A stretch of 64,000 nt of DNA. Origin: Actinomycetota bacterium. Its GTDB lineage: Bacteria; Actinomycetota; Thermoleophilia; Solirubrobacterales; 70-9. Under the pieces are notes generated by a model. It was not told the DNA's origin, did no database searches, and was given only the letters and a program-made list of their open reading frames with translations. Location of the stretch: contig JBKPOW010000052.1 of the NCBI GenBank assembly GCA_046733275.1, positions 486 to 64,485 of the forward strand, read 5' to 3'. Shown piece by piece: positions 27,528-47,692 of the stretch. How positions within the stretch are numbered: the first letter of the stretch is position 1; each line of letters begins with the position of its first letter. The translations under genes and the position numbers were made by a program.

Positions 27528-27587
27528 TCGCCGCTGCGCGGCGCTCGGGGTGTCTTCTTTAGAAGAGCGTCGCGCCGAGCATGATCG

Positions 27588-27641
27588 CCTTACGGCCGAG
27601 AGGTCTCGCGAACTCGATGCTATTGGGCACTCCGCAGGAGT
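27588..27641 (+). repeat. Repeat family copy L4, left part, hairpin interrupted
   Basis: CTTACGG..CTCGATGCTATTGGGCACTCCGCAGGAGT aligns with L2 as far as GGAGT and then diverges into IS sequence. Confidence 0.5.
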
Positions 27642-28127: not shown

Positions 28128-28129
28128 AA

Positions 28130-28185
28130 GCGATTAGCGGCGATATCGGCCGGTTCCGCGTCGCTTCCGCCAGCGGCGGGGGAGC
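28130..28185 (+). repeat. Repeat family tail fragment (GCGATTAGCGGCGATATCGGCCGGTTCCGCGTCGCTT)
   Basis: Near-identical to 3019-3055 (GCGATTAGCGGCGATTTCGCCCGGTCCCGCCTCGCTT). Confidence 0.6.
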
Positions 28186-28590
28186 TAAGTTTGCCGGCGC
28201 CAAGACATAAGTGCCCCTGGCGGCGCGCTAACGCCCCGGGGCCTGGCCACGAAGCACCTTCTGTCGGTAAGCGATCCCTTCGACGCCCTGGACTCGGAGC
28301 GCGCGACCTGAGTGTCTCCAATCAGGCCCTACGTCTTCCCGCCCCGCAAGCCGAAAGCCAAAGGCCCGCCACCGGAGCCGATCCTCCGGGGCACTCCGGC
28401 GGGACGGGCCCTCACCGACTCATTCGACCCGACCGCGGATCTCTGCGTCGACGTTGTGATCGGCGAGCCGGTCGACGGCCTCAACAACAGCGGCTGACGG
28501 GCACGCGCCTGTAGAGCGGGCCACGTCCCTGCGTCGGTCGATTGCCCTGGCCAGCGCCGTCAGCGCGATCGCGGGCTCCTGAGAGCTCTC

Positions 28591-28619
28591 TTGACATTCA
28601 GACACACGTGTGTCTTAAT
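28591..28619 (+). promoter_or_regulatory. Sigma70-type promoter candidate: TTGACA, 17 nt, CTTAAT
   Basis: -35 at 28591-96 and -10 at 28614-19, about 125 nt upstream of the first gene of the big operon. Confidence 0.55.
28600..28615. promoter_or_regulatory. Perfect 16-bp palindrome AGACACACGTGTGTCT in the promoter spacer (operator candidate)
   Basis: Read directly from the sequence. It overlaps the -10 element by 2 nt. Confidence 0.7.
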
Positions 28620-28744
28620 CCCCCGCAGCACGAGAAACACGGATGTCCGCGTTTCTCGTGACCACAGGGAACAGGATCAAAAGAGCCATGGGGCCGCCCA
28701 GGGAAGCGGCAGGCAGGGGCTCTAGCGGACAAGGAGAGAGATAC

Positions 28745-32302: not shown

Positions 32303-32333
32303 GCCGAGAAAGAACGAGGGGAACGAGGCAATA

Positions 32334-35300: not shown

Positions 35301-35756
35301 TACGCAGCAGACCAGTGCCCGCAAGGAGCGGTCTACGGCCGCGTCAGGGCCTGGACCCCGCTGCTTGACGAAACCCTGGAAGGACCCGTTTACATGCGTT
35401 CATCAAGCCATCAGCTGCCCGACGTGGTCGCGACTCTGAACGGCATCCTCGACGTTGAACTCGTCGGCCGCATCGATTCGGTCAAGGGCTCCCTGCGCAC
35501 CACCTTCGACTTCGTCCCAGACCAGCCGGTGAGCAGGTTCGTACTTTCAATGCCGGGAGGAGGGAAGGGCCTCCTGGTCAACTCGACCAATACGTGCAAG
35601 TCAACCAACCGGGTCAAAGTCCTGCTCGACGGGCAAAACGGCAAGACCGCCGATCAGTTCCCCAAGCTGCGGAACGGCTGTGCCAAGGAGACACGGCGGG
35701 CAAAGGCGCGAGGGGCCAGGCGAGCAGAGCGCAAGAGCGGGAGGACGGGCCGATGA
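32334..35756 (+). CDS. Giant secreted protein: signal peptide, DUF11/CARDB-like N-domain, repeated roughly 200-aa Cys-pair modules, basic tail
   Basis: The ATG follows gaggggaacgagg. Signal peptide LLMMAGSASA. GTGEFMLRVKNVGTTDASGAVTLKEHLPPGV. A recurring LP.G..(C)..CP..SQVG..P.L..P..G.VY pattern occurs at least 3 times. Confidence 0.8.
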   Translation: MTCKDQSQRLRKAVGIALLSLAALLMMAGSASAAVEWEVNAQWGDTVLRPGGTGEFMLRVKNVGTTDASGAVTLKEHLPPGVTMTGFATRGLAWQCFGTQTVTCATNLLDSLGNPTGTAMSTTMETSHYLPQLFIEVAASPDASGTKLNTVTVSGGGGAVASTSMPVSFGDQPTDYGILPHSFSPADVYDTRSPGLGRERQAATHPEELRVRFDMNLVHDFNIKGESFTEPAGRLRTAEVSLPRGLVGNPEALPKCATSDFLQEGLSPFTATGCPSNTQVGYIDLELNLSATEHGYGIFSGAGNAFSRIAIYNLVAPKGTPVDLGFRAGGFVYGHIYAQLDPTRDYAIKSISPDISTGAPVRGARVTIWGVPGDPAHDLYRAVPPVNFTPGGAAIHDRDPYGAAFTNAPVRPFLTMPSDCGTDNGPFLMRADSWAAKGEFTPLLEGEERVNVEGCDDPRIRFEPEVSIQPTTRDASQPTGLDIHLETPQRDQTIGGPEQAGKLYDQSGNLHAIDTPPIKKVVVRMPEGMTLSASAAQGLTACSAAQMGIGNNDPVTCPDASQYGTLTLHTPVLPPDEPMKGFIYIAKQKENPFNDFLAMYFVIEDSERGLRIKIPGRVQLDPVTGQITTTFDDLPQFPLSDVQLTFKSGVRAALVNPATCGKKTISATFYSWAEPDNPIPSDTDYSVTQKADGSPCFNNLAERPFKAQMSAGMVNPNAASYSPFVFRMTRSDDDQELSQIGVSMPAGLTSKLAGITRCSEEAIAAASNPLRTGTEEASFPSCPASSQVGTTEVGSGVGVPLTFVPGKVYLGGPYKGAPLSLVVITPILAGPYDLGVIAVRSAISLDPKTTAVSVLTDPFPQIFQGIPVRLRDIRVRIDRKDMMRNPTNCDVKQIHAHLTGAGGEVNTTADDTAADLYERFQVANCAALRFKPKLSFRLKGGTKRNDHPAFTATLTAKDGEANIARAAVTLPHSVFLDQSHIRTVCTRVQYAADQCPQGAVYGRVRAWTPLLDETLEGPVYMRSSSHQLPDVVATLNGILDVELVGRIDSVKGSLRTTFDFVPDQPVSRFVLSMPGGGKGLLVNSTNTCKSTNRVKVLLDGQNGKTADQFPKLRNGCAKETRRAKARGARRAERKSGRTGR

Positions 35757-38218
35757 AGACCGTCAAGGCAGGGTTCGCCACCGCGATAGCCGCCGCGGCG
35801 CTGCTCTCGGCGATCGCCGTCCCCGGTGCGGACGCAGAAGTGCTCTACCAGAAGACCGACCTGCTGGTGCCGACGAATGCTTATTTCCCGAGCGGCATGG
35901 ACATCGACCACTCGACTGGTGATCTTTATGTGGCGGGGGTTCACCAAGGCCTTCACCGCTTCAGTCCCGATCGGGTCGAAACCACCTACGGGCCCGCAAT
36001 CGACTTCAAGTCGGTAGCGGCGGCGCCGGAGCATAAGTCCTTCGGGCTGACCGCGAAAACGACCAGGATGATTGCGTTGGACGCCTCAGGCAACCAGACT
36101 GCCTCCTTCGGCGTAGGTGGCTCGCCCGGCGATATCGGCACCGATGCCGCCGGCAACGTCTTCGTGCCCGCCCCGGCCGCCATAACCAACGAGCAGCAGA
36201 CGCTGACGATCAGCGCGACCGGCGGCACCTACACGCTCAGCTTCGAAGGGCAGAGCACGGGCACGATGTCATTCGATGCCAGCGCGGAAGAAATTCAAAC
36301 TGCCCTGGAAGGGCTCTCGCCGATCGGCGCCGGCAACGTCGAAGTCAGCGGCAGGACCATCACCTTCCAAGGCGTGCTCGCTGGCATCGACGTACCCGAG
36401 CTCACCGCCGACACTTTGCTCTTGACCGGCGGCTCGCTGAAAGTCGAAACGACCGTGATCGGCTCGACCTATCCCCTCGCGGGCGTGCGCGAGTTCAGCC
36501 CCACCGGCACCCTGAAGCAGGTGATTGACTGCAGCGCCTGCCCCGCGCCGGCTGAATTCAGCAAACCCGCGGCGGTCGACTTCGACGCAGACGGCAACAT
36601 GTATGTGGCAGATTCCGGTGGAGCGCGCGTGATCAAGTTCGTCGCATCGGCCGGCGATCCGACCGATTACACCTCTGTGCCGCCGGAGGTCTTCAGCACG
36701 GGCGCCTCGGTAGCTGTAGCGGTGGACCGCTCCAACGGCGATGTCTTCATCGGTGGAGACGACGGCAGTGGCTATCACGTCACCGGATACCACTCCGATG
36801 GAGTCAAGTTCACCGATTTCGGTCTTGGTGAGCTCGACAACCTGGGCGAACTGGCCGGCGAATTCTTTGGCATGTTGCCCGACCAGCTCGCGGTCGATCC
36901 GCAGACCGGCCACGTCCATGTCGATGACATCAACTTCAGTGGGGAAAGCCGTATCTGGGAGTATGCCCCCGTTCTCGCTCCAACCGAGAGCCCTCTACCG
37001 GCAAGTGGCATCACCCAGGACACTGCCACCCTCAACGCCACGGTCAACCCAATGGGCGACACGGTCATCGCCTGCCACTTTGAATATGGCCTCGACACGA
37101 GCTACGGCCAAAGCACCGAGTGCGCCGACTACCCGGGCTTTGGCACCGACCCGGTCGGGGTAAGCGCCGACATTGGTGGCCTGGCCCCAAACACCACCTA
37201 CCACTACCGAGTGGTGGCCACCAACGCGGCGGGCACGAGCGAAAGCACAGATGAAGAATTCACGACCCTGGTAGAGAAGCCGATCGTCTCGACTGGATCC
37301 GCCTCCGCGATCAGCGCAACCGCAGCGACGATCTCAGGCTCGGTAGATCCCAAAGGCAGCGCGACCAGCACCTGCCATTTCGAATACGGCACCACCACCG
37401 CCTATGGCAGTCAGGCCCCCTGTCCCACCGACCCCGGAGAAGGCCAGGGAGCCGTAGGGGAGTCCCTCCCCGTCAGTGGCCTGGCCCCCAACACCACCTA
37501 TCACTACCGCCTGGTGGCTGAGAACCCAGGCGGGACTTCCCGGGGGGCCGACGGCTCCTTCAAGACCCTGCCCAGGGCACCGGGCACGAGCACCGGATCG
37601 GCCTCTGACCTGACCCCGACCACCGCAAAGGTCGCAGGCTCGATCGATCCTCAGGGGGTGCAGGCCTCCTACCGCTTCGAATACGGCACGACTCCGTCCT
37701 ATGGTCAAAGCAGCCCCGCGGGCGGTGCCGGCGGCCAAGGAGCGCAAGCGGTGGCGGTTTCCCTGGCATCGCTCAAACCCTCGACCACGTACCACTATCG
37801 CCTCATTTCAAGCAACGCGGGCGGCGCTACCCAAGGTGCCGATCGGACATTCACCACTCAAGCACGCCCCAAGGGCAGGTTGATATTGCCCGCCACTGCG
37901 GTGCTCAGAGGCAAAAAGGCGGCGGTCCCGCTCGAGTGCAGAGGCGCCAAGATTGCTATCTGCGAAGGCACCCTGACCCTGCGCGCCAGGGTGAAACAGG
38001 GAATTCGCTTGACCTTGGTCCAGATCGGTCAGGCGGCTTTCCAGGTCGACGGCGATGAGACCAAAGCGGTCTCGGTCACCCTCAACGGCAACGGCAGGAA
38101 AGCCCTTGCCGGCACAGACGGAAAAGCGCTTAGAGCAATCGCTTCTGCCGACGGCCACAACCGCGAAGTGCGCATTTCCCCGCGCGCAAAACGCAGCAAG
38201 CATGCGAAGAAGCGCTAG
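35753..38218 (+). CDS. Secreted NHL-repeat plus 3x FN3-like (HFEYG..APNTTYHYR) protein, basic tail
   Basis: ATGA overlap with the previous gene. Signal peptide AAALLSAIAVPGADA. There are three tandem domains of about 95 aa, ending PRAKRSKHAKKR. Confidence 0.8.
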   Translation: MKTVKAGFATAIAAAALLSAIAVPGADAEVLYQKTDLLVPTNAYFPSGMDIDHSTGDLYVAGVHQGLHRFSPDRVETTYGPAIDFKSVAAAPEHKSFGLTAKTTRMIALDASGNQTASFGVGGSPGDIGTDAAGNVFVPAPAAITNEQQTLTISATGGTYTLSFEGQSTGTMSFDASAEEIQTALEGLSPIGAGNVEVSGRTITFQGVLAGIDVPELTADTLLLTGGSLKVETTVIGSTYPLAGVREFSPTGTLKQVIDCSACPAPAEFSKPAAVDFDADGNMYVADSGGARVIKFVASAGDPTDYTSVPPEVFSTGASVAVAVDRSNGDVFIGGDDGSGYHVTGYHSDGVKFTDFGLGELDNLGELAGEFFGMLPDQLAVDPQTGHVHVDDINFSGESRIWEYAPVLAPTESPLPASGITQDTATLNATVNPMGDTVIACHFEYGLDTSYGQSTECADYPGFGTDPVGVSADIGGLAPNTTYHYRVVATNAAGTSESTDEEFTTLVEKPIVSTGSASAISATAATISGSVDPKGSATSTCHFEYGTTTAYGSQAPCPTDPGEGQGAVGESLPVSGLAPNTTYHYRLVAENPGGTSRGADGSFKTLPRAPGTSTGSASDLTPTTAKVAGSIDPQGVQASYRFEYGTTPSYGQSSPAGGAGGQGAQAVAVSLASLKPSTTYHYRLISSNAGGATQGADRTFTTQARPKGRLILPATAVLRGKKAAVPLECRGAKIAICEGTLTLRARVKQGIRLTLVQIGQAAFQVDGDETKAVSVTLNGNGRKALAGTDGKALRAIASADGHNREVRISPRAKRSKHAKKR

Positions 38219-38981
38219 GGCTCTTTCCCTGGCCGCTGCGCTGGCGATCGCCGTGGTGGCGATTGCCGGCGCCGAGGTGGGCCAGCAAGGCAACCTGCGG
38301 GTCGCCTTCGAAGGCAAGATCACCCCCCACGCCCTGCCGAGGAACAAAGAGGTGCCGGTCGCGGTCTCCTTCAGTGGCCGCATCACCACCACCGACAACA
38401 GCGAACCTCCGCCGCTTCGAACAATCCGCCTGGCGATCAACAGAAACGGCCACATCGACTACAAGGGCCTGCCCAAATGCCGCTACAACCGCATTCAGCC
38501 CTCGAACAACCACGAGGCGCTCGAGGCCTGTCGTTCCTCCTTCGTCGGCATGGGGCACTTCTCGGCCAAGGTGCTGTTGCCAGAACAATCCCCCTTCCCC
38601 TCGGAGGGCAAGGTCTTGGCCTTCAACGGCGAAATGCTCCAGCACCCGGTCATCTTCGCCCACATCTATGGCACCAGGCCGGTGGCCACGTCCTTTGTGC
38701 TCCCCTTCGTCGTCCGTCATTCAAATGGGCGCTACGCCACCACCCTCGTTGCCTACCTGCCCAAAGTGGGCGTTAAATGGGGCTTCGTCACCGCTGTCAG
38801 CTTGAAGCTGCAGCGCACCTTCGAGCTGAACGGCCGCACCCATAGCTACCTCTCCGCTGCTTGCAGCGCTCCCGATGGCTTTCCCGGCGCCATCTTCTCC
38901 TTCGCCAAAGCCGAATTCGCCTTCGCCGAAAACCGGACCGTATCGACGCCTTTGACCCGCAGCTGCAAGGTGCGGGACTGA
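38202..38981 (+). CDS. Secreted 259-aa protein homologous to the Cys-pair module of the 32334..35756 product
   Basis: 17-nt overlap with the previous gene. Signal peptide LAAALAIAVVAIAGA. LRVAFEGKITPHALPR..LPKCRYNRIQ..ACRSSFVGMG..EGKVLAFNG. Confidence 0.7.
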   Translation: MRRSARALSLAAALAIAVVAIAGAEVGQQGNLRVAFEGKITPHALPRNKEVPVAVSFSGRITTTDNSEPPPLRTIRLAINRNGHIDYKGLPKCRYNRIQPSNNHEALEACRSSFVGMGHFSAKVLLPEQSPFPSEGKVLAFNGEMLQHPVIFAHIYGTRPVATSFVLPFVVRHSNGRYATTLVAYLPKVGVKWGFVTAVSLKLQRTFELNGRTHSYLSAACSAPDGFPGAIFSFAKAEFAFAENRTVSTPLTRSCKVRD

Positions 38982-38999
38982 GACTGGCGGCTTAGGACG

Positions 39000-39745
39000 G
39001 CGCTAAGACCAGCTCGGGCGGATTCCGCCTGAGTGAATCGCTGGGCATACGCCGTCGGACGATTCCCCGGGGGTCTCGCCGCTCGTGTCTGGGTAGGTTG
39101 TCTCCATGTCCGGCGAAGCGCGTTGCGAGTCGAGACTGAAGCGTCCCTCACCGCCATCGTTGCCGAGCGTGTCTACGCGGGCGTTGAGCTCGCCGACGTG
39201 TTGGCGGCCGCGGGCACAGCGGAGGCAGGCTTCTCACCACGTCGGCCGCCTTGACGGTGGGGAATGCCCGTGAGGCCAAAAACAGGCGAGTGATCGTCGA
39301 GCATGTTGAGGATCTCCGCGCGTCCTCCTGTGGCGGGGGCCAGTGGGTGACGTCGGCCTGCCACATCTCGTTGGGCAGCTCGGCTTCAAAGCGAAGGAGC
39401 GAGGAGCGCGGGCGCTGCGCTCGGCCAGGTGGTAGGCGATCGTCGCCGCTCCGCAGTCGTGGCCTTCCTTGCTCAGCTGTCTGCGCAGGGCGACGATCGC
39501 ATCGGCGAGCTCGGCAGAGGTCCCGTTCGACGAGCTGCGCGGCGCCCTGGAGCGGCGCTCCAGGGCGCCATACCCGCCCGCCCTGTAGCGGGCCAGGAGC
39601 TTGTAGATCCAGCTGCGATGGACTCCGTGCGCCGCCGCCAGCTCGCTGACTGGGCGGCCCTCAACAGATGCGCCTCCACCAGATACCGCGCCTTGTCCCA
39701 CAGGAGAGCTCCCCTCATTGGAGATCCTCCCCCCGTAATTCCTGA
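39000..39745 (-). mobile_element. IS481-family transposase remnant (N-terminal HTH through the DDE core), with multiple frameshifts and a deletion
   Basis: GRPVSELAAAHGVHRSWIYKLLARYRAGGYGALERRSRAP, FEAELPNEMWQADVTHW and EILNMLDDHS, spread over three frames. Confidence 0.7.
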
Positions 39746-39759
39746 GATTCAGATGGAGA

Positions 39760-40330
39760 GGCCGAGCGCAGCGAGGCCGCCGCAGAATCCCTGGAAGCAC
39801 AGAGAGCCGGCGCCGAGCGCGATGCTCGCCGGGCCGTGGCGCGCGGGCTGGTGGCCGCGCTCGACGCAAAGATCAGAACCGCCCTGATGGCCCACCCGGA
39901 CGCCGAAGTCTTCGCTCCCCTGTTCCGCAGCGCCAAGACGACGATCTGCCCGGCGACTCTGATCGCTGAGATCGGTGACCGCAGGGGCCGCTACCCCACC
40001 GAGGCCGCGCTGGCGGCCGACGCAGGAATGAGCCCGGTCGCGCTGGAGTCGGGGAAGATGCGCGTCGCGACCTTCAGGCGCGCCTGCGACAAGCGGCTGC
40101 GAAAAGCCGTCACAGTCCTCGCCGACTCCACCCGCCACTGGCATCCGTGGGCCAAGGACGTCTACGAGCGAGCCCGGGCCAGAGGCTAGGACCATCCGCA
40201 CGCGACCCGCACCCTGGGGCGCGCCTGGATCAGGGTTCTGTGGCGCTGCTGGCAGGACGGAGTGCCCTACCTCCCGTCCTTGCACGGGAACCTGGGATTC
40301 GGTGTCTCCTATGTCCTGACACAGGTGTCG
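39760..40330 (+). pseudogene. IS110-family (DEDD) transposase, C-terminal half only, with an in-frame TAG at 40187
   Basis: TLIAEIGDRRGRYPTEAALAADAGMSPVALESGK..RRACDKRLRKAV..WAKDVYERARARG*DHPHATRTLGRAWIRVLWRCWQDGVPY. Confidence 0.75.
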
Positions 40331-40351
40331 CTTATGTGGTGGAAACCGGAC

Positions 40352-40470
40352 ACCATCAGCCGCTTCGCTTCGAATCCCCTGCACTTCGGCGGGTTGGCCC
40401 TCCGGGAGGAAATCAACCATCCTGTCGCCTCCATTTTGGGCATTAGTGCCCGAAATGACGCGGATGCCAC
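40352..40470 (+). repeat. Module D: last 12 nt of the tRNA-like core, spacer, R-type box with GGGCATTAGTGCCC palindrome
   Basis: CCATCAGCCGCTTCGCTTCGAATCCCCTGCAC aligns with 23748-23780. Palindrome at 40438-51. Confidence 0.6.
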
Positions 40471-40572
40471 CTAGATTGGGCGCGCCGCAGATCCTCCCTC
40501 AGGTTCCTGAGCGTGAAGGCACGGTGCAATCCTATGGCACCCTTTCAGCCGCTTTACTTCGCGCCGCGAGGG

Positions 40573-41034
40573 CTAGCTCGCCTCTATCACCACGACGGTG
40601 CCCTGCATTTCTGGGTGGATCGAGCAGATGTAGGTGTATTCGCCCGGGGTCTTGAAGCTCTCCGAGCCCAGCTTCCCTTCGTCGAGGATGCCGGTGTCGA
40701 AGCTGCCGTCATCTGCGGTCGCGGTGTGAGGGGCCGAGTCGCGGTTGATCCACGTCACCTTGCCGCCTTCCTCGACGGTGACCGGGTCGGGGTCGTAGGC
40801 AAAGTCGGCGATCTCGACTTTCGCCGAGCGCTGCGCGTTGCCGCTCGGCGCCTTTTCGGCTTCTTCACCCGATGCCGGTTCTTCGCTTCCCGTCGCTTCT
40901 TCGGTTTCGGCGGCCGGAGGCGTTCCGGTATCCGCGCCGCCGGCATCGTCATCGTCGTCGCCGCAACCGGCGACCCCAAGCGCGCCGATGGCAGCACAGG
41001 TCAGAAACAGGAGAACCAGCCGTTTTGTCTGCAT
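40573..41034 (-). CDS. Cupredoxin (plastocyanin/amicyanin-like) lipoprotein with an acidic linker
   Basis: Lipobox LGVAGC. Type-1 copper ligand pattern APH...YICSIHPEMQG. Confidence 0.85.
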   Translation of the reverse strand: MQTKRLVLLFLTCAAIGALGVAGCGDDDDDAGGADTGTPPAAETEEATGSEEPASGEEAEKAPSGNAQRSAKVEIADFAYDPDPVTVEEGGKVTWINRDSAPHTATADDGSFDTGILDEGKLGSESFKTPGEYTYICSIHPEMQGTVVVIEAS

Positions 41035-41136
41035 TGGCCCGTCCTACCCCTTTGGGCGGTAGCGAATCACGATCGGGGCGGGCAGGTTCGCTGCACCCGC
41101 GTACGATCGAGGGGAAACCTATCGAGGAGGAAGGAA

Positions 41137-41547
41137 ATGGCCACTGCGACTTCCGTTGTCCACGGCGTCGACTTCGTTTCTATCCCGGTGACCGACCTGG
41201 AGGCATCGGAGCGGTTCTACCGCGAGGTGCTCGGCATGCGGCCCTCGAAGCGCTGGCAGCGCCCCGGGCAGGAGGCGATGGGCGCCGAGTTCGAGCCCGG
41301 AACGGTGACCCTGGGACTGATCGATTGCGCGAAGATCGGTATCGAGTTCCAGCCGATGAAGGTGCCGATCGCGCTCCATGTCGACGACTTCGAGGCCGCC
41401 AAAGCCGCGCTCGAGGAACGCGGCGTCGAGTTCCGGGGCGAGACGATCGACAGTGGCGTCTGCAACATGCTCGCCTTCGCCGACCCCGACGGCAACGCCT
41501 TGATGATCCACCACCGCTACGCCCCCAAGGACGCCAGACCGACCTGA
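41137..41547 (+). CDS. VOC/glyoxalase-family protein
   Basis: The ATG follows GAGGAGGAAGG. VDFVSIPVTDLEASERFYREVLGM and FADPDGNALMIHH. Confidence 0.8.
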   Translation: MATATSVVHGVDFVSIPVTDLEASERFYREVLGMRPSKRWQRPGQEAMGAEFEPGTVTLGLIDCAKIGIEFQPMKVPIALHVDDFEAAKAALEERGVEFRGETIDSGVCNMLAFADPDGNALMIHHRYAPKDARPT

Positions 41548-41587
41548 GCGGCAGGCCACTTCCCAGCGGCTACCCTTTGCTCGGCAC

Positions 41588-41658
41588 GGCGCCTTGGCGG
41601 AGTGGCTACGCAGCGGCCTGCAAAGCCGTTTACACCGGTTCGATTCCGGTAGGCGCCT
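41588..41658 (+). tRNA. tRNA-Cys (anticodon GCA)
   Basis: Hand-folded: acceptor GGCGCCT/AGGCGCC, D arm GCG-9nt-CGC, anticodon arm GCGGC-CTGCAAA-GCCGT, T arm ACCGG-TTCGATT-CCGGT. Confidence 0.9.
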
Positions 41659-41741
41659 TTGGACGGCGGGGGCTGATGGAACTTTTTGAACTCAGGAAGA
41701 GAATCCACTTAGTTTTTAATTAACTCTCTAGCCTTTCCGAA

Positions 41742-43412
41742 ATGGTAGGGTGCCCGCCCGTGGAGGCGGCGATAGACGAAGGCGGCGTGGTCGGCTGCGG
41801 CGCGTTCTTCGATGCCGATGCGGAGTCGGCCAGCCTGCGTCGCTTCCTCGTTGGGCTGGATACGGCACCGCAGCTTATGGAGCGGGCGGAGATCGAAAGT
41901 GAGCTGAACGACCCTCTCGCCGCTCTCCTCTTTCGCCAGGGCGTTTTCCCGAGCACCGCCGAGGGCGTGCTGGCCGAGCTCGATCTCAAGATCGGCACCG
42001 ATCACCCGCTCTCTTTGAGCACGCAGCGATCGTTTGTCGTCGGCGAGGGGACGCAAATCGCCAAGGATCGCTCCGCAACCTTCAATCGCAATATCCGGTT
42101 CCTCGTCACTCGCGGCCGAGGTGGGCCCGACGGGCCCGATCTGATGATCAGCACCTTCCGGCCCAACAGCACCAGCATCGAGGTGATGGCCTGGGACCCC
42201 CAGAACGGGGGCTTCAACTTCTACCGGACCATTCCCGGCGCGGTGGGCAGCTGGGCCTGGGCGGGCAACTCGCGACATGCCTGGGAGGAGGGGACCCGTT
42301 CGAGCGGGCCGTTCGAGAGTCACCCGACCGGAAACCTGCTCTTCAAGGAGTTCAAGCTCCCCTGGGTGCACTGGCACTCGTCCAAGGCGATCATCGACAA
42401 GCTCGATTTCCCGGCCGCCGACGACATTGCGGAACACAGTTGGTTCACCGCGAAGGAAAACGCCTACGTGCTCGAGGACTCGGTGGCAAAGCTGGCCATA
42501 ACGCGGTGGAATCGCACCCGCCTCGGCCAGGTGCTTGACGCTGGGGCGATCGAGGAACCGACGCAGGTGATGGAGCGCATCGTCGGCTCGCCTGCACCGC
42601 GCCGCCACACCGTGAACCTGGTCTCCAGCGAGGACACCCAGCCGGCCCTGGCGGGCATCGAGGCGGTGAGGCTGCCGAAGTCGTTCTTCGTCGACGTCGA
42701 CGGCCTGTCAGGCGTGCTCGACCTTCCATTCCCGAAAGAGCCCTTCGAGGTCTCGGCCGACGTATATCGGTCGATCTTGAGCGAGTTCGACGTCACCGTC
42801 AGCAGCGACGATGGGGGTTTCTCGCGGCCCGGGGACACGCATTTTCTCTTCGTCGTCCCCGAGCGGGCGTTCGAGGACACCGAGTTCGTCCGGCAGCTCG
42901 TCAAACCTGACGGGGGTGCCGGCGAGCGCGATCTCGGCCTGGTCTCGGAACGGTTGGTCGGCTGCCTGCTGATGGTCGACTTCCCCAACCCGGTCTTCTC
43001 CGAGCGGCGGGCGTCGCTGCGCAGGCACCTGCCGGCCGGCCCGCTGCCTGCCTCCGAGTGGGGAGGATTCGCCGAGACGTTCGGCAATGCGATCGCTGCC
43101 GCCGCGACCGGTACCAACCCAGAACCGGCCGAGCTTGAGTTTGCCGAGCTCTGGAACCTCAAAGACGACGGCTGGCGTGACGCGGCGAGCCAGCGCCTCG
43201 AAAGCTACTACGCCGCGCTTGCCGCTCGACTGGGATCGGCGGACGACTTCAAGCAGATCTTCATGCTGGCCGAGGCGCGGCGCAATCGTGTTCGCGAGAT
43301 GCCGATCAACGAGACGTCGCTGCTCTTTGCGGAAACCTCAATACCGCCTGAGGACATCGTTGGCCTGGCGATGAACCCCGACGGCACGGTCGAGCAGAGG
43401 GACTCGGCGTGA
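41742..43412 (+). CDS. Hypothetical 556-aa protein, no domain recognised
   Basis: Protein-like composition, e.g. WDPQNGGFNFYRT and ESHPTGNLLFKEFKLPWVHWHS. The stop overlaps the next start (GTGA). Confidence 0.7.
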   Translation: MVGCPPVEAAIDEGGVVGCGAFFDADAESASLRRFLVGLDTAPQLMERAEIESELNDPLAALLFRQGVFPSTAEGVLAELDLKIGTDHPLSLSTQRSFVVGEGTQIAKDRSATFNRNIRFLVTRGRGGPDGPDLMISTFRPNSTSIEVMAWDPQNGGFNFYRTIPGAVGSWAWAGNSRHAWEEGTRSSGPFESHPTGNLLFKEFKLPWVHWHSSKAIIDKLDFPAADDIAEHSWFTAKENAYVLEDSVAKLAITRWNRTRLGQVLDAGAIEEPTQVMERIVGSPAPRRHTVNLVSSEDTQPALAGIEAVRLPKSFFVDVDGLSGVLDLPFPKEPFEVSADVYRSILSEFDVTVSSDDGGFSRPGDTHFLFVVPERAFEDTEFVRQLVKPDGGAGERDLGLVSERLVGCLLMVDFPNPVFSERRASLRRHLPAGPLPASEWGGFAETFGNAIAAAATGTNPEPAELEFAELWNLKDDGWRDAASQRLESYYAALAARLGSADDFKQIFMLAEARRNRVREMPINETSLLFAETSIPPEDIVGLAMNPDGTVEQRDSA

Positions 43413-44434
43413 TCGAGCCGCCCGGAAACGTCGCGCCGCCCTCGGCGGAGTGGTCCGCGACAGTCGAGCGGTTGATCGAGGACGCGAGCAATGAATCGCT
43501 CGATGGATTGAGCCTGGACGGACGGGAACCGCCCTTCTTCAACCCGCTCAAGGGGCCCCTCGGCGTGACGGAGTCCACCGTCAAGTGGTCGGTGCTCTCG
43601 GGCACGCTGCGCTCGAGCGGCCTCTCGCAGGAGGCGCGCTGGCGAGTCGCCGACCAGGCAAGGATCGAGCCAAGCGAAGTCGCACCCGGCAAGCGGGTTT
43701 TCGGGCAGGACGAGTACTGCGAGTGGAGCGTCGCACGCAGTGGGGACGAGGTCAGGAGCGTCACCTTCACCTCGGAGGTCGGCGAGTGGTACCAGCACCT
43801 CGCCGCCGATCCGGGTGCCATCCGCGCTGAGTACGAGCGCCTCCTCGGCGAGCAGGTGAGCGAGGGCGAGCTCTTCATCGACGGCAAGTACAACTGGCGG
43901 AATGAGTGGAACAACGGCGCCAAAGGCACGATCGTCCATCTGGCACAGCAAAACAACAACCTCACAGCCGCGGTCCAGCTCGCCGCCGAAGCGTCGGTTG
44001 TCCGGACCGGCCCGGCGGGGATCATCACGGACCCTCAGGCGTTGATGCAGTGCAATGGCCTTGGCAACGCCGACCGCTTCAGCGATCCCTCGATCGCGGC
44101 GACGATCAACGGCCTTGCGGCCGGCGGCGCGCGGATAGCGCTTGCCAACCCGCCTGGTCTTTATCTGGCCGGCATCCGGACCGACGGGATGCGTTTGCCG
44201 CCCGGACACGAGGACCTCGATCCGGCCGACTTCTGGCATCCCGAAAAAGGCGAGAACGGGAGGGTGGTCCGTGCCCGTTTCGAACCCCCGCCCGGGACCC
44301 TCGCGCTCAGCGACGTCCTCCTTGACGGCAGGCCGATCGTCACCGGCGCACAGCTCGCCGAGCGTGTCGACGTGACGATCTCGGTACTCGTGCACCAGGC
44401 TGAACAGAAACCAGTCACGAAGCCGTGCGGCTGA
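43409..44434 (+). CDS. Hypothetical 341-aa protein (paralog of the next gene)
   Basis: QDEYCEWSVARSGDEVRSVTFTSE and QNNNLTAAVQLAAEA. No signal peptide. Confidence 0.7.
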   Translation: MIEPPGNVAPPSAEWSATVERLIEDASNESLDGLSLDGREPPFFNPLKGPLGVTESTVKWSVLSGTLRSSGLSQEARWRVADQARIEPSEVAPGKRVFGQDEYCEWSVARSGDEVRSVTFTSEVGEWYQHLAADPGAIRAEYERLLGEQVSEGELFIDGKYNWRNEWNNGAKGTIVHLAQQNNNLTAAVQLAAEASVVRTGPAGIITDPQALMQCNGLGNADRFSDPSIAATINGLAAGGARIALANPPGLYLAGIRTDGMRLPPGHEDLDPADFWHPEKGENGRVVRARFEPPPGTLALSDVLLDGRPIVTGAQLAERVDVTISVLVHQAEQKPVTKPCG

Positions 44435-44473
44435 CTGCCACGCCTGCCGTGGCGATAACCCGGCCCTAGGGGC

Positions 44474-45685
44474 ATGGCCGCGCCCGGTGGACTCACCGAG
44501 CTGGGGGAGGACGCCGGCGCGTGGGACGCCCGCGTTGCCGACAAGGTCGCGCGGGCCGGGGCTCCCCTGGCGCTGACAGCGGCCGGCAGGGGCAACGCCA
44601 CTGAGCTGCGGGTCCCGGACTGGCCGGCCGTGCCCGCCCGGATCCGCGCCTGTCTCGGCAGGCAACGGGCGGATCGCCTCATGGACACGACGACCGAATC
44701 GGGGGGCGACCTGGGGCGAACGATGCTGCAGGAGGAGTACGCCGAGTGGCGGGTCGTGCGCGACGATCGCGGCCCGGTCCGCTTCGAGCTCACCACTGAG
44801 CTCTCCGACTACTGGGAGCTGCTGGCGCGGCACGCGCCCCGAACTGCGCTCGACCTGGTGTCCGGCTTTGCCGGGCACCAGGTCCCGGCCGAGGCGCTCT
44901 TCGGCGACCACGACCCGTTCGGCGCGGCCAGCACAGGGGACGAGCGAGCGGCGGCATTCAACGCGACGATGCTGGGCATCGACCGGCGGGGGGAGCGTGT
45001 CGCCCGGCGGGGCCCCTACAACGACGGCACCGCTGCCATCACCTGCCTCGCACGCGGCGACAATACCCTCGCCGCGCTCGTTCGACTCGTCGCGGGGGCC
45101 GCGGTACCGCGACTTGTGCTCGATTCCACGGGAGAAGGCGTGCGCTTCCCCTCCGGCTCGGAGGCGATCGCCTGGATGCCCACCGGCAGCGCGCAGGACT
45201 GCCGCAACTCGGATCCGGTCGTGGTCGAGCGGCTGACCAGGCTCGCCACCGAAGGGCGCCCGATCCGCTTCGACGACCCCGTTGGCGTCTACATCCTCGA
45301 CGTCCAGGGGTTTGACCTGCTCTGCCCGGGCGACGAGCCGCTGCCGCGCGAGTGGCTCGAGCTGAGCCGGCAGGGAGAGCTCGCCGACGGGCTCGCCCGG
45401 CACCAGCGGCTCACGCTGGATATCCCAGCCGACGCCGGCTTCTCCCTCGCCCAGCTGCGCTCGGCGCGCACCGGGAGGACGATCGAACACGGAGCGCAGA
45501 TCGCCGAGCTCGTCCAGCTTGGCGTCTACCTGCGGGTCGGCGATCGGGAGTCGGTGCCGGTCGATGTATCGCCACGCCCGGCCCCCGAGACTCCCGCCTG
45601 CGGCGGTGACGCGGCCTGCGAGGGCGTGCGCCGGGACGCGTCTCGGCTGGAAGAGAAGGCTCGGGGCGTACCTGAGGGCGCGTGA
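44474..45685 (+). CDS. Hypothetical 403-aa protein (paralog of the previous gene)
   Basis: QEEYAEWRVVRDDRGPVRFELTTE and GDNTLAALVRLVAGA. The stop overlaps the DyP start. Confidence 0.7.
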   Translation: MAAPGGLTELGEDAGAWDARVADKVARAGAPLALTAAGRGNATELRVPDWPAVPARIRACLGRQRADRLMDTTTESGGDLGRTMLQEEYAEWRVVRDDRGPVRFELTTELSDYWELLARHAPRTALDLVSGFAGHQVPAEALFGDHDPFGAASTGDERAAAFNATMLGIDRRGERVARRGPYNDGTAAITCLARGDNTLAALVRLVAGAAVPRLVLDSTGEGVRFPSGSEAIAWMPTGSAQDCRNSDPVVVERLTRLATEGRPIRFDDPVGVYILDVQGFDLLCPGDEPLPREWLELSRQGELADGLARHQRLTLDIPADAGFSLAQLRSARTGRTIEHGAQIAELVQLGVYLRVGDRESVPVDVSPRPAPETPACGGDAACEGVRRDASRLEEKARGVPEGA

Positions 45686-46899
45686 GGGTGACCGCCTCAG
45701 AGCCACAGCTACAGGCAGGCATCTACCTCGAGACGGGCAGCCTGCCCAACGCCTTCCTTCTCCTCACCCTCGAGTTCGCGGACGAGTGTCCCCCGGCCGA
45801 GGCGGCGGCGGCGCTAGGGCGGTTGTGGGCGATGCTCGCCGACCTGAGGGCGGGTGTCGTGCGCGAGCTCGAGGCAGCCAAGCCCGGCGACGACAGTTCC
45901 CGGATCGAGCCGGAAACCTTCGACGTGTTGCTCGGCTACGGAGCGAGCTTCTTCGAGCGCGAGCCGCGGTTGAGCGGGGCTGAGAAGCCCGACAACCTGG
46001 TCGCGCTGGAGCATCCGCAGGGACCGTTCGCGGCCATGCGCTGGGCTGCCGGGGTCGCCGCCGGGCGGGGCGAGGGTGACCTCTGCTTGCAACTGACCGG
46101 ACGCGATGCTCATGCCGTCAACCGCGCCGCGGTCGAGGCCTGGAAGCTGATCGTCGACGAGCGCCTGCCGCTGAGGATCGTCGAGACCTTCCCCGGCTTC
46201 GCCCGCGACGACGGCCGCAGCTGGATCGGCTTCCACGACGGCGTCAGCAACATCAGGCCGGACCTGCGCGAGCGCGCCGTCCGTTGCACCGGCGACCCCG
46301 ACTGGAACCGGGGTGGGACCTATCTTGCTTTCCTGCGCTGCCGGGTGGACCTGGCTGCGTGGCAGTCTCTCTCGCGCGCCGAGCAGGAGATGCTGGTCGG
46401 CCGCGACAAGCTCAGCGGCTTTGCCCTGCGCCGTATCGATCAGGAGCGAGCGAGGCTCGTGCCGCGGGCCTTCCCGCGCGGTTCGGGGGACCCCGGACCT
46501 GGGGCGGCGGAGGAGGAAGCCTTCCGCGACCCGCCCGAGACCGGCGATCCGATCGTCGAGGCCTCGCACGTCCATCGGGCCAACCAGAACCGTGCCGCGC
46601 CGACGACCCCGGCGGGCCATCGCATCTTCCGCCAGGGCTACGAGTACCTCAGCGGTGTCGGGCCCAGAGGCCCGGAGCTCGGCCTCAACTTCGTCAGCTT
46701 CCAGCGCGATCTCTATGACCTCAGGCAGATCCTCGGGCTGGCCGACTGGCTGGGCGGGGTCAACTTCGGCGGCCGCGTCGAGCGGGCGCGCGGCGAGCCG
46801 GAGCCGATCGAGCTGATCGCGCTCGAGGCGGGGAGCTTTTACGCGGTACCGCCGCACGCGAGCCCATTTCCCGGCGCGAGTCTGTTCGGATCGGGATAA
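45682..46899 (+). CDS. DyP-type (dye-decolorizing) heme peroxidase
   Basis: IGFHDGVSN, GGTYLAFLR, SHVHRAN (proximal His region), RQGYEY, GLNFVSFQRD and GSFYAVPP. Confidence 0.85.
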   Translation: MRVTASEPQLQAGIYLETGSLPNAFLLLTLEFADECPPAEAAAALGRLWAMLADLRAGVVRELEAAKPGDDSSRIEPETFDVLLGYGASFFEREPRLSGAEKPDNLVALEHPQGPFAAMRWAAGVAAGRGEGDLCLQLTGRDAHAVNRAAVEAWKLIVDERLPLRIVETFPGFARDDGRSWIGFHDGVSNIRPDLRERAVRCTGDPDWNRGGTYLAFLRCRVDLAAWQSLSRAEQEMLVGRDKLSGFALRRIDQERARLVPRAFPRGSGDPGPGAAEEEAFRDPPETGDPIVEASHVHRANQNRAAPTTPAGHRIFRQGYEYLSGVGPRGPELGLNFVSFQRDLYDLRQILGLADWLGGVNFGGRVERARGEPEPIELIALEAGSFYAVPPHASPFPGASLFGSG

Positions 46900-46926
46900 A
46901 GGGGAAAGAGCGCGCCGGACAACGGA

Positions 46927-46956
46927 AAAGGGCCCCGAATGGGGCCCCTTGTTTCC
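46927..46956 (+). terminator. Hairpin terminator after the DyP gene
   Basis: GGGCCCC-gaat-GGGGCCC followed by cttgtttcc. Confidence 0.55.
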
Positions 46957-47145
46957 GAAGGACGTGCCGCCAGATCAACAGACGCTGGCTCGTCGGTCCT
47001 CAAACTTTGAAGTTGTGCCGCCGCCCCTGCCGGCGGCTTGTATTGATAAACACGCCGTACGTGGAAAAGTTGCACTCCTTGCATCGGCGCTTGCAAGCGG
47101 CGACTTTAGGCCTTAGACCCACCGCTGCTAAATTCCGATTCCCTC

Positions 47146-47218
47146 GGGCGCATAGCTCAGTTGGGAGAGCGCCGCCTCGACAAGGCGGAGGTCGCTGGTT
47201 CGAGCCCAGCTGTGCCCA
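47146..47218 (+). tRNA. tRNA-Val (anticodon GAC) with an atypical C at position 33
   Basis: Acceptor GGGCGCA/TGTGCCC, D arm GCTC-AGTTGGGA-GAGC, anticodon arm CCGCC-TCGACAA-GGCGG, T arm GCTGG-TTCGAGC-CCAGC. Confidence 0.85.
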
Positions 47219-47245: not shown

Positions 47246-47692
47246 ATGGCCTACCGCCTGCTGCGCGCCGACGACGCCTTCTGGCGCGAGTCGAACCAGA
47301 TGCGGGTGCTCAACACCGACCTCGCCAAGCAGCTCGAGGCCGAGAACCTTGGGGCCCGTTTATGGCGGCTGCGGCCGGGCCAGGCGTCGACCAAGCACCA
47401 TCACCCCCGTGAGGAGGAGCTCTACGTGCTTATTCGCGGTCGCGGCCGGATCCGCGTCGACGAGGAGTCGCTGGAGCTGAAGCCGCTCGACGCGCTCCTG
47501 GTCGAGCCAGACTCCGTGCGCCAGGTCTTCAACGACACCGACGAGGAGGCTCTGTGGCTGGTCGTCGGTTCCCCGCCGGAAGCCGCCAACACCCTCGAGA
47601 TGAGCGAGGCGCGGCTGCGCGAGCTCTACCCCGAGGGGCCGCGTGCGCTGCCGCCGGAGCTGGGCGGCGGTCAGTTCTCGCCGCCGGACTGA
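47246..47692 (+). CDS. Cupin-domain protein
   Basis: GQASTKHHHPREEELYVLIRGRGRIRVD...LLVEP. Confidence 0.8.
   Translation: MAYRLLRADDAFWRESNQMRVLNTDLAKQLEAENLGARLWRLRPGQASTKHHHPREEELYVLIRGRGRIRVDEESLELKPLDALLVEPDSVRQVFNDTDEEALWLVVGSPPEAANTLEMSEARLRELYPEGPRALPPELGGGQFSPPD

What the first reader, a model, noticed from the sequence alone, without database searches (positions are those of the whole stretch)
41659..46956. tRNA-bounded operon: three unrecognisable proteins translationally coupled to a DyP-type peroxidase
- The genes are 41742..43412, 43409..44434, 44474..45685 and 45682..46899. Two of the three junctions are GTGA overlaps.
- The operon ends in a hairpin terminator and sits between tRNA-Cys and tRNA-Val.
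- Only the last product is recognisable, as a DyP heme peroxidase.
- None of the products has a signal peptide.
- This is not the known EfeUOB context, and there is no encapsulin shell gene in the window.
- The first protein has a His/Trp-rich stretch (ESHPTGNLLFKEFKLPWVHWHS) that could bind a metal or cofactor.
- It is a candidate for an undescribed oxidative pathway or protein-modification system built around a cytoplasmic DyP.
Basis: partly seen in the sequence, partly recalled or inferred. Interest (0 to 1): 0.7.

Follow-up and report, generated by a model that had tools for sequence, protein, structure and literature searches.

The report
Undescribed protein pair partnered with DyP
A four-gene operon in a soil actinobacterium joins a widespread, never-studied two-protein unit to a haem peroxidase (DyP) that brings its own copy of one of the two proteins; dozens of genomes keep this linkage, which points to unknown peroxide-dependent chemistry.

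Summary
In detail: four co-oriented genes, two GTGA start/stop overlaps, flanking tRNA-Cys and tRNA-Val, and an intact leaderless DyP.

- Proteins 2 and 3 are paralogs of Pfam DUF8225 (PF26676).
- Protein 1 belongs to a large family (1,148 clusters at 50% identity) with no Pfam or NCBIfam model.
- P1 and P2 give confident AlphaFold models (pLDDT about 92) with no PDB fold match.

The operon is two modules.
- Module 1 (P1 then DUF8225) is the core. The two genes are adjacent in 76 of 80 genomic loci across six or more phyla, and fused in at least six lineages.
- Module 2 (a second DUF8225 then DyP) is an accessory. DyP follows P3 in 49 of 51 testable loci. P1-P2 is present in 16 of 19 well-flanked loci, in four different gene arrangements.

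Elsewhere the core has independently acquired three other haem-peroxidase lineages, often with H2O2-forming oxidases. It has also acquired signal-less proteases and PLD domains.

Best reading: a new cytoplasmic, peroxide-coupled enzyme system in which DUF8225 is the subunit shared by P1 and DyP. The substrate is unknown. The main rival is a conflict or cell-death system with swappable effectors. The tRNA bracketing is incidental. I found no literature on either family.

The parts
41659..41759 (+). AT-rich leader or promoter region between tRNA-Cys and the P1 start
   Evidence: Sequence read. It has no Rfam match, no sigma-70 consensus hit, and no mini-ORF conserved in relatives.
41760..43412 (+). 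P1: 550-aa member (556 aa if started at ATG 41742) of a large family with no Pfam or NCBIfam model. It is the core subunit of module 1.
   Evidence: 345 clusters at 90% identity; 1,148 representatives at 50%; AF2 pLDDT 91.6; no PDB fold match; universal residues D57 R119 W151 W171 H194 K202 E203 P207 W208 W211 N292 Y342 E378 D379 D413 N416 S420 R423 R513 E524; start.
43409..44434 (+). P2: DUF8225 (PF26676) protein, the partner subunit of P1. Its start overlaps the P1 stop (GTGA).
   Evidence: AF2 pLDDT 92.7; no PDB fold match; adjacent to P1 in 76 of 80 loci; natural P1-DUF8225 fusions.
44474..45685 (+). P3: a second, divergent DUF8225 paralog specialised as the DyP-linked subunit of module 2.
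   Evidence: 27% identical to P2, E 2e-9; 94 clusters, all PF26676; keeps all universal DUF8225 residues but lacks P2's C104, H177 and C215; always directly upstream of DyP.
45682..46899 (+). Leaderless DyP-type haem peroxidase of class A/EfeB-like descent. Its start overlaps the P3 stop (GTGA); an alternative GTG lies at 45688.
   Evidence: closest PDB entries are EfeB-type; GFHDG aligns with the GXXDG motif and the distal Arg aligns; no signal.
46930..46947 (+). GC-rich hairpin, a candidate operon terminator
   Evidence: 7 GC pairs, weak U-tract, z -1.43.
41588..41658 (+). tRNA-Cys(GCA), the upstream boundary. It is incidental and not part of the system.
   Evidence: no att-like partial copy.
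47146..47218 (+). tRNA-Val(GAC), the downstream boundary. It is incidental.

Best explanation
The operon encodes a cytoplasmic, two-module enzyme system.

Module 1 is an obligate complex of P1 (a new family) with a DUF8225 protein (P2). Module 2 is a second DUF8225 protein (P3) made together with a leaderless DyP haem peroxidase.

P3 keeps every universally conserved DUF8225 residue. I therefore read DUF8225 as the shared ligand- or substrate-holding (or docking) subunit: in module 1 it serves P1, and in module 2 it serves DyP. In this model P1-P2 makes or holds an oxidisable substrate, most likely an aromatic small molecule or a peptide. P3 presents that substrate, or presents the P1-P2 complex itself, to DyP, which oxidises it with H2O2.

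Shown:
- the gene anatomy
- the paralogy of P2 and P3
- conserved linkage in four gene arrangements
- independent recruitment of other haem peroxidases and H2O2-forming oxidases by the same core
- intact DyP catalytic motifs

Inferred:
- physical complexes, from fusions and start/stop overlaps
- the direction of flow from module 1 to module 2
- the nature of the substrate
For: - Core pair: P1 is followed by DUF8225 in 76 of 80 genomic loci from Actinomycetota, Alpha-proteobacteria, Myxococcota, Cyanobacteria, Acidobacteriota and Rokubacteria.
- At least six independent natural P1-DUF8225 fusion proteins exist.
- Module 2: DyP lies directly after P3 in 49 of 51 testable metagenomic loci, and P1+P2 are present in 16 of 19 loci with long flanks.
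- All 9 DyP-bearing genomic loci and all 4 long-contig loci also hold the full set.
- Four arrangements recur: colinear P1-P2-P3-DyP 10 times, P3-DyP-P1-P2 11, divergent 8, convergent 4.
- The P3/DyP start-stop overlap is conserved.
- P3 keeps all universal DUF8225 residues.
- The same core sits beside three other haem-peroxidase lineages: An_peroxidase of a Streptomyces type in 7 loci, An_peroxidase of a Geodermatophilaceae type in 3, and a DyP_N-type DyP in 4. In all, 20 of 80 loci have a haem peroxidase. These lie on separate branches of the P1 tree.
- H2O2-forming enzymes lie alongside: GMC oxidoreductase in 7 loci, including the tight GMC-AnPox-P1-P2 cluster in L052; DAO; and LodA/GoxA with its flavoprotein.
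- An annotated haem-binding protein lies directly upstream of P1 in two genera.
- A ferritin-like domain is fused to P1-DUF8225 in P0293.
- Control: no Pfam family recurs more than 3 times among 201 singleton neighbours.
- Both core proteins have many invariant polar and aromatic residues, as enzymes do.
- The DyP motifs are intact.
- All four products lack signal-like N-termini.
Against: - About 75% of P1-P2 loci have no peroxidase within 8 kb, so peroxide chemistry may be optional.
- A second recurrent partner set does not fit a simple oxidative pathway: signal-less S8, S53, astacin, caspase-like and trypsin-like peptidases, PLD fused to DUF8225, patatin, and STAND AAA_16 proteins.
- No substrate, cofactor or precursor was identified.
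- Only one His in P1 is invariant.
- Both folds are without PDB relatives, so structure gives no chemistry.
- There is no expression or biochemical evidence; only soil DNA runs hold the operon.
Confidence: 0.45

Rival explanations
1. This is a biological-conflict, defence or programmed-cell-death system. P1-DUF8225 is the conserved core (sensor, activator or toxin). Interchangeable 'effector' enzymes are bolted on in different lineages: here a cytoplasmic haem peroxidase, elsewhere proteases, PLD, patatin or H2O2-forming oxidases. These effectors damage the cell or a competitor.
For: - Partner enzymes are swapped around a constant core: PLD fused to DUF8225; astacin and caspase-like proteases contiguous with P1-P2 in Rokubacteria, Myxococcota and Actinomycetota; S8, S53, PLD and an AAA ATPase in Rhizobium; a patatin-like protein.
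- STAND AAA_16 proteins are adjacent in 4 distant loci.
- The distribution is patchy across phyla and the contexts are often mobile: integrases and transposases around L001, IS110 near L083, 13 plasmids of which 9 are conjugative, and Streptomyces chromosome ends.
- The proteases lack signal peptides.
Against: - The four window proteins match no PADLOC model.
- There are no phage-borne copies.
- The 201 singleton neighbours are mostly metabolic or regulatory genes, not defence genes.
- In this window the operon sits in core chromosome beside translation and arginine genes.
- Several genomes carry two copies.
- P1 and DUF8225 are conserved like enzymes rather than like fast-evolving sensors.
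- It does not explain why the DyP needs its own DUF8225 paralog.
Confidence: 0.25
2. The DyP acts as a maturation factor. It installs or maintains a protein-derived redox cofactor or cross-link (Tyr, Trp or Cys based) in P1 or DUF8225. The analogy is MauG making TTQ, or DtpA supporting maturation of the Tyr-Cys cofactor of GlxA.
For: - P1 has invariant Trp, Tyr and His residues (W151, W171, W208, W211, Y342, H194), and DUF8225 has the Q-x-E-Y-x-E-W motif.
- P2-type proteins in the actinobacterial set also have invariant Cys104, Cys215 and Cys340.
- There is a precedent for a DyP serving another enzyme's maturation (PMC4736821).
- A LodA/GoxA CTQ oxidase and its flavoprotein lie next to P1-P2 on a Bradyrhizobium plasmid.
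Against: - Most P1-P2 loci have no peroxidase nearby.
- The Cys residues are not universal, and P3 lacks them.
- This reading gives no reason for a second DUF8225.
- No structural evidence for a cross-link could be obtained here.
Confidence: 0.12
3. This is a RiPP-like or protein-modification pathway. A small precursor peptide is tailored by P1-DUF8225 and oxidatively cross-linked by DyP, with proteases elsewhere acting as leader peptidases.
For: - Proteases recur next to the core.
- A radical SAM protein and a flavin halogenase are adjacent in L158.
- A SARP-type BTAD-AAA_16-TPR regulator is adjacent in L049.
Against: - No mini-ORF is conserved upstream of P1 in 13 colinear loci.
- The window operon has only an 83-101 nt leader and a 39-nt internal gap.
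- No recognised RiPP enzyme family is present in the window operon.
Confidence: 0.08
4. The adjacency is coincidental. The DyP is an ordinary stress or iron-related (EfeB-like) or encapsulin-cargo peroxidase that merely lies next to unrelated hypothetical genes.
For: - The DyP's nearest solved relatives are EfeB-type enzymes.
- The P3-DyP half has a higher GC content (70-73%) than the P1-P2 half (62-67%).
Against: - The linkage is conserved through four rearrangements in dozens of loci.
- There is no Tat leader, no EfeU or EfeO, and no encapsulin.
- P3 is a paralog of P2.
Confidence: 0.02

Closest known systems
DtpA-GlxA of Streptomyces lividans: a DyP serving a partner oxidase (PMC4736821)
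   Same: A class-A-type DyP works as a dedicated partner of another enzyme rather than as a free-standing detoxifier. It acts as a peroxidase in the presence of that partner.
   Different: DtpA is Tat-exported, its partner is a radical copper oxidase, and no DUF8225 or P1-like protein is involved. Here the DyP is leaderless and is co-translated with a paralog of the core's own subunit.
EfeUOB iron-uptake system (EfeB, a class A DyP)
   Same: The closest solved sequence relatives of the window DyP are EfeB-type enzymes (6kmm, 7pkx; E about 1e-14). The GXXDG motif and distal Arg align.
   Different: There is no twin-arginine leader and no EfeU or EfeO in the window. TIGR01412 scores 79 bits against a 428 cut-off.
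Encapsulin-DyP cargo systems
   Same: A DyP is co-transcribed with a dedicated non-enzymatic-looking partner gene.
   Different: The partner is not an HK97-fold shell protein: the DUF8225 model has no significant PDB match, and the HK97 head hit has E 1.6 and TM 0.08. The partner lies upstream and is a paralog of another operon member. No Linocin_M18 hit appears among the listed window families.
Flavin oxidase plus haem enzyme pairs (VioA/VioB, RebO/RebD); the domain assignment here is recalled from memory
   Same: An H2O2-forming flavoenzyme is paired with a haem enzyme, as with GMC-An_peroxidase beside P1-P2. One family member (P0293) carries the PF12902 ferritin-like domain, which I recall as the VioB/RebD domain.
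   Different: P1 and DUF8225 show no similarity to a recalled VioB sequence (this negative is weak). The enzyme families differ.
Bacterial conflict systems with swappable effectors, for example gasdermin-protease or STAND-linked systems (from general knowledge)
   Same: A constant core has variable neighbouring proteases, PLD, patatin and STAND NTPases, with patchy and partly plasmid-borne distribution.
   Different: No known defence model matches. The core proteins are of unknown fold, and peroxidases are not a recognised effector class.

Membership tests
DyP-type peroxidase (product of 45682-46899) | Sequence match above the curated family thresholds | tested here: met
   PF20628 scores 74.7 bits (cut-off 20). 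TIGR01413 scores 105.6 bits (cut-off 100.5).
DyP-type peroxidase (product of 45682-46899) | GXXDG motif with the catalytic Asp, and the distal Arg | tested here: met
   GFHDG aligns with GFKDG of EfeB, and the R of IFRQGYEY aligns with the R of ILRRAFSY (alignment).
DyP-type peroxidase (product of 45682-46899) | Proximal His haem ligand | tested here: inconclusive
   A candidate (EASHVHRAN) lies inside the Pfam-matched stretch 179-351. That segment was not aligned residue by residue to a solved DyP.
DyP-type peroxidase (product of 45682-46899) | Haem binding and H2O2-dependent oxidation | not testable with these tools
   This needs purified protein.
Class A (EfeB/Tat-exported) DyP within EfeUOB | Twin-arginine signal peptide | tested here: not met
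   The N-terminus MRVTASEPQLQAGIYLE has no RR motif or hydrophobic segment. The start overlaps the P3 stop, leaving no room for a leader.
Class A (EfeB/Tat-exported) DyP within EfeUOB | Adjacent efeU (FTR1) and efeO (M75) genes | tested here: not met
   The neighbours are P3 and tRNA-Val. No FTR1 or Peptidase_M75 appears among the listed window families. TIGR01412 scores 79 bits against a 428 cut-off.
Encapsulin cargo DyP | Adjacent HK97-fold shell gene | tested here: not met
   There is no such neighbour, and the DUF8225 model has no significant fold match. Only 25 of the 78 window families were displayed.
Encapsulin cargo DyP | C-terminal cargo-loading peptide | not tested
   The C-terminus ...PFPGASLFGSG was inspected by eye only.
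Pfam DUF8225 (PF26676), for P2 and P3 | Match to the family model | tested here: met
   The precomputed Pfam tag is on the window proteins themselves (P0121, P0183) and on all their homologs. The model is absent from the local Pfam copy.
Pfam DUF8225 (PF26676), for P2 and P3 | Shared conserved signature (Q-x-E-Y-x-E-W ... E ... N ... N ... R-x-S-D-P) | tested here: met
   These residues are at least 90% conserved over 156 P2-type, P3-type and fused sequences, and are present in both window proteins.
Known anti-phage defence systems (PADLOC 2.0) | Match of any component to a defence-system model | tested here: not met
   The four window proteins have 0 hits. Only the PLD domains fused to DUF8225 in other genomes match generic DrmC-type models.
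RiPP biosynthetic cluster | Precursor peptide gene next to the modifying enzymes | tested here: not met
   No mini-ORF is conserved upstream of P1 in 13 colinear loci. Very short or distant precursors cannot be excluded.

The most novel reading that the evidence does not exclude
P1-DUF8225 is a new kind of enzyme complex, made of two folds with no solved relative, that carries out redox chemistry serviced by peroxide. DUF8225 is a general docking or ligand-presenting subunit through which haem peroxidases are coupled to it: here a domesticated, leaderless EfeB-type DyP. This would define a previously unseen class of cytoplasmic peroxidase-coupled systems spread over at least six bacterial phyla.
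Probability: 0.35. Interest if true: 0.8.

Novelty: categorically new. Interest (0 to 1): 0.68.

Why it matters
- The physiological substrates and partners of bacterial DyPs are largely unknown outside EfeUOB and encapsulins. This is a DyP clade with an obligate, genetically defined partner set, which turns the question 'what is this DyP for?' into one that can be tested.
- The work exposes a large protein family with no database model (P1, 1,148 clusters at 50% identity) and gives the first functional context for DUF8225.
- Both proteins have confident models without solved relatives, so structures and activities would be new.
- Cultured carriers exist (Modestobacter, Geodermatophilus, Streptomyces, Rhizobium leguminosarum WSM1325, Azospirillum), so genetics is feasible.

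Tried and rejected
- Sequence and profile searches of P1, P2 and P3 against local Pfam, NCBIfam, PADLOC and PDB sequences found nothing.
- P1 and DUF8225 are not related to each other (hhalign probability 0.1).
- VioB lead: P1 and DUF8225 do not match a VioB sequence recalled from memory. This negative is uninformative and I dropped the lead.
- tRNA-targeted integration: there are no flanking direct repeats and no partial tRNA-Cys copy, and related loci are not tRNA-bounded.
- Riboswitch or leader RNA: Rfam finds only the two tRNAs.
- Precursor mini-ORF: none is conserved.
- Literature: searches for PF26676, DUF8225, DyP genomic context, and peroxidase in conflict systems found no description.
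- Transcript evidence: only soil-metagenome DNA runs hold the operon.
- Unbiased Pfam census of 201 singleton neighbours: no further enriched family.
- The first attempt at this census exceeded the residue limit.

Full report
**1. Check of the observation**

The two GTGA start/stop overlaps (43409-43412 and 45682-45685) were read directly. Each is preceded by an SD-like purine run. P3 follows P2 after 39 nt, with AGGGG before its ATG.

The last product is a DyP: PF20628 E 9.5e-21, and TIGR01413 above its cut-off. The GXXDG motif and the distal Arg align to EfeB-type structures. The other three products have no hit in the local Pfam, NCBIfam or PADLOC libraries, nor in PDB sequences, whether as single sequences or as profiles.

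Small corrections:
- The P1 start is probably the GTG at 41760, not the ATG at 41742.
- The hairpin is a modest terminator candidate.
- A crude hydrophobicity test supports the absence of signal peptides.
- The rest of the window is ordinary core chromosome: EF-G, IF-3, L20, PheT and arginine genes, plus three P450s. No encapsulin, EfeU or EfeO appears among the listed families.

**2. What the three 'unknowns' are**

P2 and P3 are paralogs (27% identity, E 2e-9). Both they and all their homologs carry the precomputed accession PF26676, named DUF8225. This model is newer than the local Pfam copy.

P1 has 345 homolog clusters at 90% identity and 1,148 representatives at 50% identity. All are annotated 'hypothetical', and none has a Pfam domain. 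P1 and DUF8225 are unrelated to each other.

No paper in the held library mentions either family.

**3. Anatomy: two modules**

A genome scan with the P1 alignment returned 80 loci. They come from Actinomycetota (Solirubrobacterales, Geodermatophilaceae, Nocardioides, Pseudonocardia, Streptomyces), Alphaproteobacteria, Myxococcota, Cyanobacteria, Acidobacteriota and Rokubacteria.

- In 76 of the 80 loci a DUF8225 gene directly follows P1.
- At least six independent single-polypeptide P1-DUF8225 fusions exist, some from low-GC lineages.

I infer from this that P1 and DUF8225 form one functional unit.

The second module (P3-type DUF8225 then DyP) is rarer. It occurs in 9 of the 80 loci, all within one actinobacterial P1 clade and on many of its branches. 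A metagenome scan with a P3 alignment gave 64 P3-type loci:

| Test | Result |
|---|---|
| DyP directly after P3, where downstream sequence allows a test | 49 of 51 |
| P1+P2 present, where at least 3.5 kb flanks both sides | 16 of 19 |

The exceptions to the second test are L131 and L133 (the same sequence in two samples) and the divergent L144.

Four gene orders recur:

| Arrangement | Loci |
|---|---|
| P1>P2>P3>DyP | 10 |
| P3>DyP>P1>P2 | 11 |
| Divergent | 8 |
| Convergent | 4 |

Linkage that survives this much rearrangement is strong evidence of functional dependence. The reverse does not hold, because most P1-P2 pairs have no P3-DyP. The core is therefore P1-DUF8225, and the DyP module is an accessory that needs it.

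The P3/DyP start-stop overlap is conserved. The tRNA bracketing is not, and I found no att-like scar.

**4. Independent evidence for a peroxide theme**

Clustering all neighbours within 4-8 kb showed that, outside lineage-specific synteny, the recurrent partners are haem peroxidases from four separate lineages:

| Peroxidase lineage | Loci |
|---|---|
| Module DyP | 9 |
| An_peroxidase, Streptomyces type | 7 |
| An_peroxidase, Geodermatophilaceae type | 3 |
| DyP_N-type DyP | 4 (3 of them shared with the Streptomyces-type An_peroxidase loci) |

That makes 20 of 80 loci in all. The lineages sit on different parts of the P1 tree.

H2O2-forming enzymes travel with them:
- GMC oxidoreductase occurs in 7 loci. 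The clusters are tight and same-strand: GMC-AnPox-P1-P2 in L052, and P1-P2-GMC-AnPox in L059 and L048.
- A DAO-type oxidase occurs in L036.
- A LodA/GoxA CTQ oxidase with its flavoprotein lies beside P1-P2 on a Bradyrhizobium plasmid.

Other redox-related partners:
- A protein that RefSeq calls 'heme-binding' lies directly upstream of P1 in Rhizobium and Sphingomonas.
- A PF12902 ferritin-like domain is fused to P1-DUF8225 in P0293. A ferritin-like gene also accompanies the pair in L082 and L158.
- A tyrosinase is adjacent in L084.

As a control, no Pfam family occurs more than three times among 201 singleton neighbours. Haem peroxidases are rare genes, typically a handful per genome (general knowledge). 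So a 25% incidence within 8 kb is a large enrichment. This last step is inference.

**5. A second, awkward partner set**

Signal-less peptidases also recur beside the pair: S8, S53, astacin, caspase-like and trypsin-like. So do PLD domains (fused to DUF8225 in four alphaproteobacterial and acidobacterial loci), a patatin-like protein and STAND AAA_16 proteins.

Contexts are often mobile or accessory:
- integrases and transposases around L001
- IS110 near L083
- Streptomyces chromosome ends
- 13 rhizobial or Azospirillum plasmids, 9 of them conjugative

No copy is in a phage. This pattern is what keeps the conflict-system rival alive.

**6. Residue-level clues**

Across 150 diverse P1 sequences the universal residues are D57, R119, W151, W171, H194, K202, E203, P207, W208, W211, N292, Y342, E378, D379, D413, N416, S420, R423, R513 and E524. 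It has only one invariant His, which argues against a multi-His metal site.

Across 156 DUF8225 sequences the universal set is W60, D82, Q100, E102, Y103, E105, W106, T121, E123, N168, N183, R223, S225, D226, P227, P248, G250, Y252, R288, G313, Q315 and A317 (P2 numbering). P3 keeps this entire set. P3 lacks only the P2-clade-specific C104, H177 and C215. P3 thus looks like a working DUF8225, not a decayed adaptor.

**7. Mechanism**

*Most likely (0.45).* This is a cytoplasmic, peroxide-coupled enzyme system in which DUF8225 is the subunit shared by two catalytic partners. P1-P2 makes or holds an oxidisable substrate. P3 hands it, or hands the complex itself, to DyP for H2O2-dependent oxidation.

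- Shown: the anatomy, the paralogy, the conserved linkage, the independent recruitment of peroxidases and H2O2 sources, and the intact DyP motifs.
- Inferred: the physical complexes, the direction of flow and the class of substrate.

*Rivals.*
- Conflict or cell-death system with swappable effectors (0.25)
- DyP as a maturation factor for a protein-derived cofactor, by analogy with DtpA-GlxA (PMC4736821) or MauG (0.12)
- RiPP-like pathway (0.08; no conserved precursor ORF)
- Chance adjacency, EfeUOB or encapsulin (0.02; contradicted)

**8. Comparison with known systems, and novelty**

The DyP is a member of the DyP family and descends from the EfeB-like class. It fails the defining context features of EfeUOB (Tat leader, EfeU/EfeO) and of encapsulin cargo (shell gene).

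The closest functional analogy is DtpA-GlxA, where a DyP also serves a partner enzyme. Neither the partners nor the cellular location match.

No known family or system accommodates P1-DUF8225. I therefore rate the system as categorically new, with the caveat that its function is inferred from context only.

**9. Limits**

- Fold comparison was possible only against the PDB, not against AFDB.
- No multimer prediction was possible.
- No expression data exist for this soil-metagenome sequence.

Noticed in passing
window 40573-41034 (-) and 47246-47692 (+): An amicyanin/plastocyanin-like cupredoxin with a lipoprotein-like N-terminus lies just upstream of tRNA-Cys. A Cupin_2 protein lies just downstream of tRNA-Val. 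A related quartet locus (L084) also has cupin and glyoxalase genes next to it, which suggests shared synteny.
   Followed up: partly
window 2822-2895 to 41588: tRNA-Gly(GCC) lies 38.7 kb upstream of tRNA-Cys. The stretch between has weak GC3 periodicity and many gaps in my composition-based gene calls. The window as a whole holds three P450s, an RPE65-type oxygenase and TetR regulators. This stretch may be a foreign or accessory segment splitting a tRNA cluster.
   Followed up: no
window 41600-46999: The two modules differ in base composition: the P1-P2 part is 62-67% GC and the P3-DyP part is 70-73% GC. This is consistent with separate histories for the two modules.
   Followed up: no
L003 about 5520-5565 and 1736-1809: In the closest relative, the 3' part of a tRNA-Met is repeated immediately upstream of P1, while the full tRNA-Met lies 3.7 kb away. 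This looks like the scar of an integrated element beside the operon.
   Followed up: no
L078 7815-12164; P0341, P0304, P0307, P0380, P0385, P0411: These are natural single-chain P1-DUF8225 fusions. Some carry two C-terminal PLD domains. P0411 has a signal-peptide-like N-terminus, so not every family member is cytoplasmic.
   Followed up: partly
P0293 (Logan contig from ERR12040025): A PF12902 ferritin-like domain is fused in front of P1-DUF8225 and followed by an S8 peptidase gene. The DUF8225 part is split over two gene calls.
   Followed up: partly
L158 (Bradyrhizobium barranii plasmid pBb323S2c, 120582-138096): P1-P2 lies in a same-strand cluster with a radical SAM protein, a tryptophan 7-halogenase, an MBL hydrolase, a LodA/GoxA CTQ oxidase with its FAD monooxygenase, and (on the opposite strand) a ferritin-like protein. 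It looks like a biosynthetic or oxidative gene cluster. The ferritin-like gene and two hypothetical genes recur in L082.
   Followed up: partly
L157 (Rhizobium leguminosarum WSM1325 pR132503, 26850-44304): A same-strand array holds five peptidases of different classes (S1, caspase, serine protease, S53, S8), a 'heme-binding protein', P1-P2, a PLD-like protein and an AAA ATPase. The two peptidases upstream of an IS66 remnant have signal-like N-termini; the rest do not.
   Followed up: partly
L013, L016, L020 versus L018, L021, L050: Several MAGs carry two P1 genes. The copy without an adjacent DUF8225 is followed instead by CYTH, SRPBCC (Polyketide_cyc2) and trypsin-PDZ genes. L113 has P1-P2 followed by a second P1.
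   Followed up: no
L131/L133 8944-10470; L144 8812-11294: There are exceptions to the linkage rule. L131 and L133 (the same sequence in two metagenomes) hold an orphan P3-type gene with neither DyP nor P1-P2 within about 8 kb. L144 holds a divergent P3-DyP pair without P1-P2.
   Followed up: no
L083 5058-6710 (-): The P1 gene of this Acidimicrobiia MAG is broken by two frameshifts, although P2, P3 and DyP are intact. It is either a pseudogene or an assembly error.
   Followed up: partly
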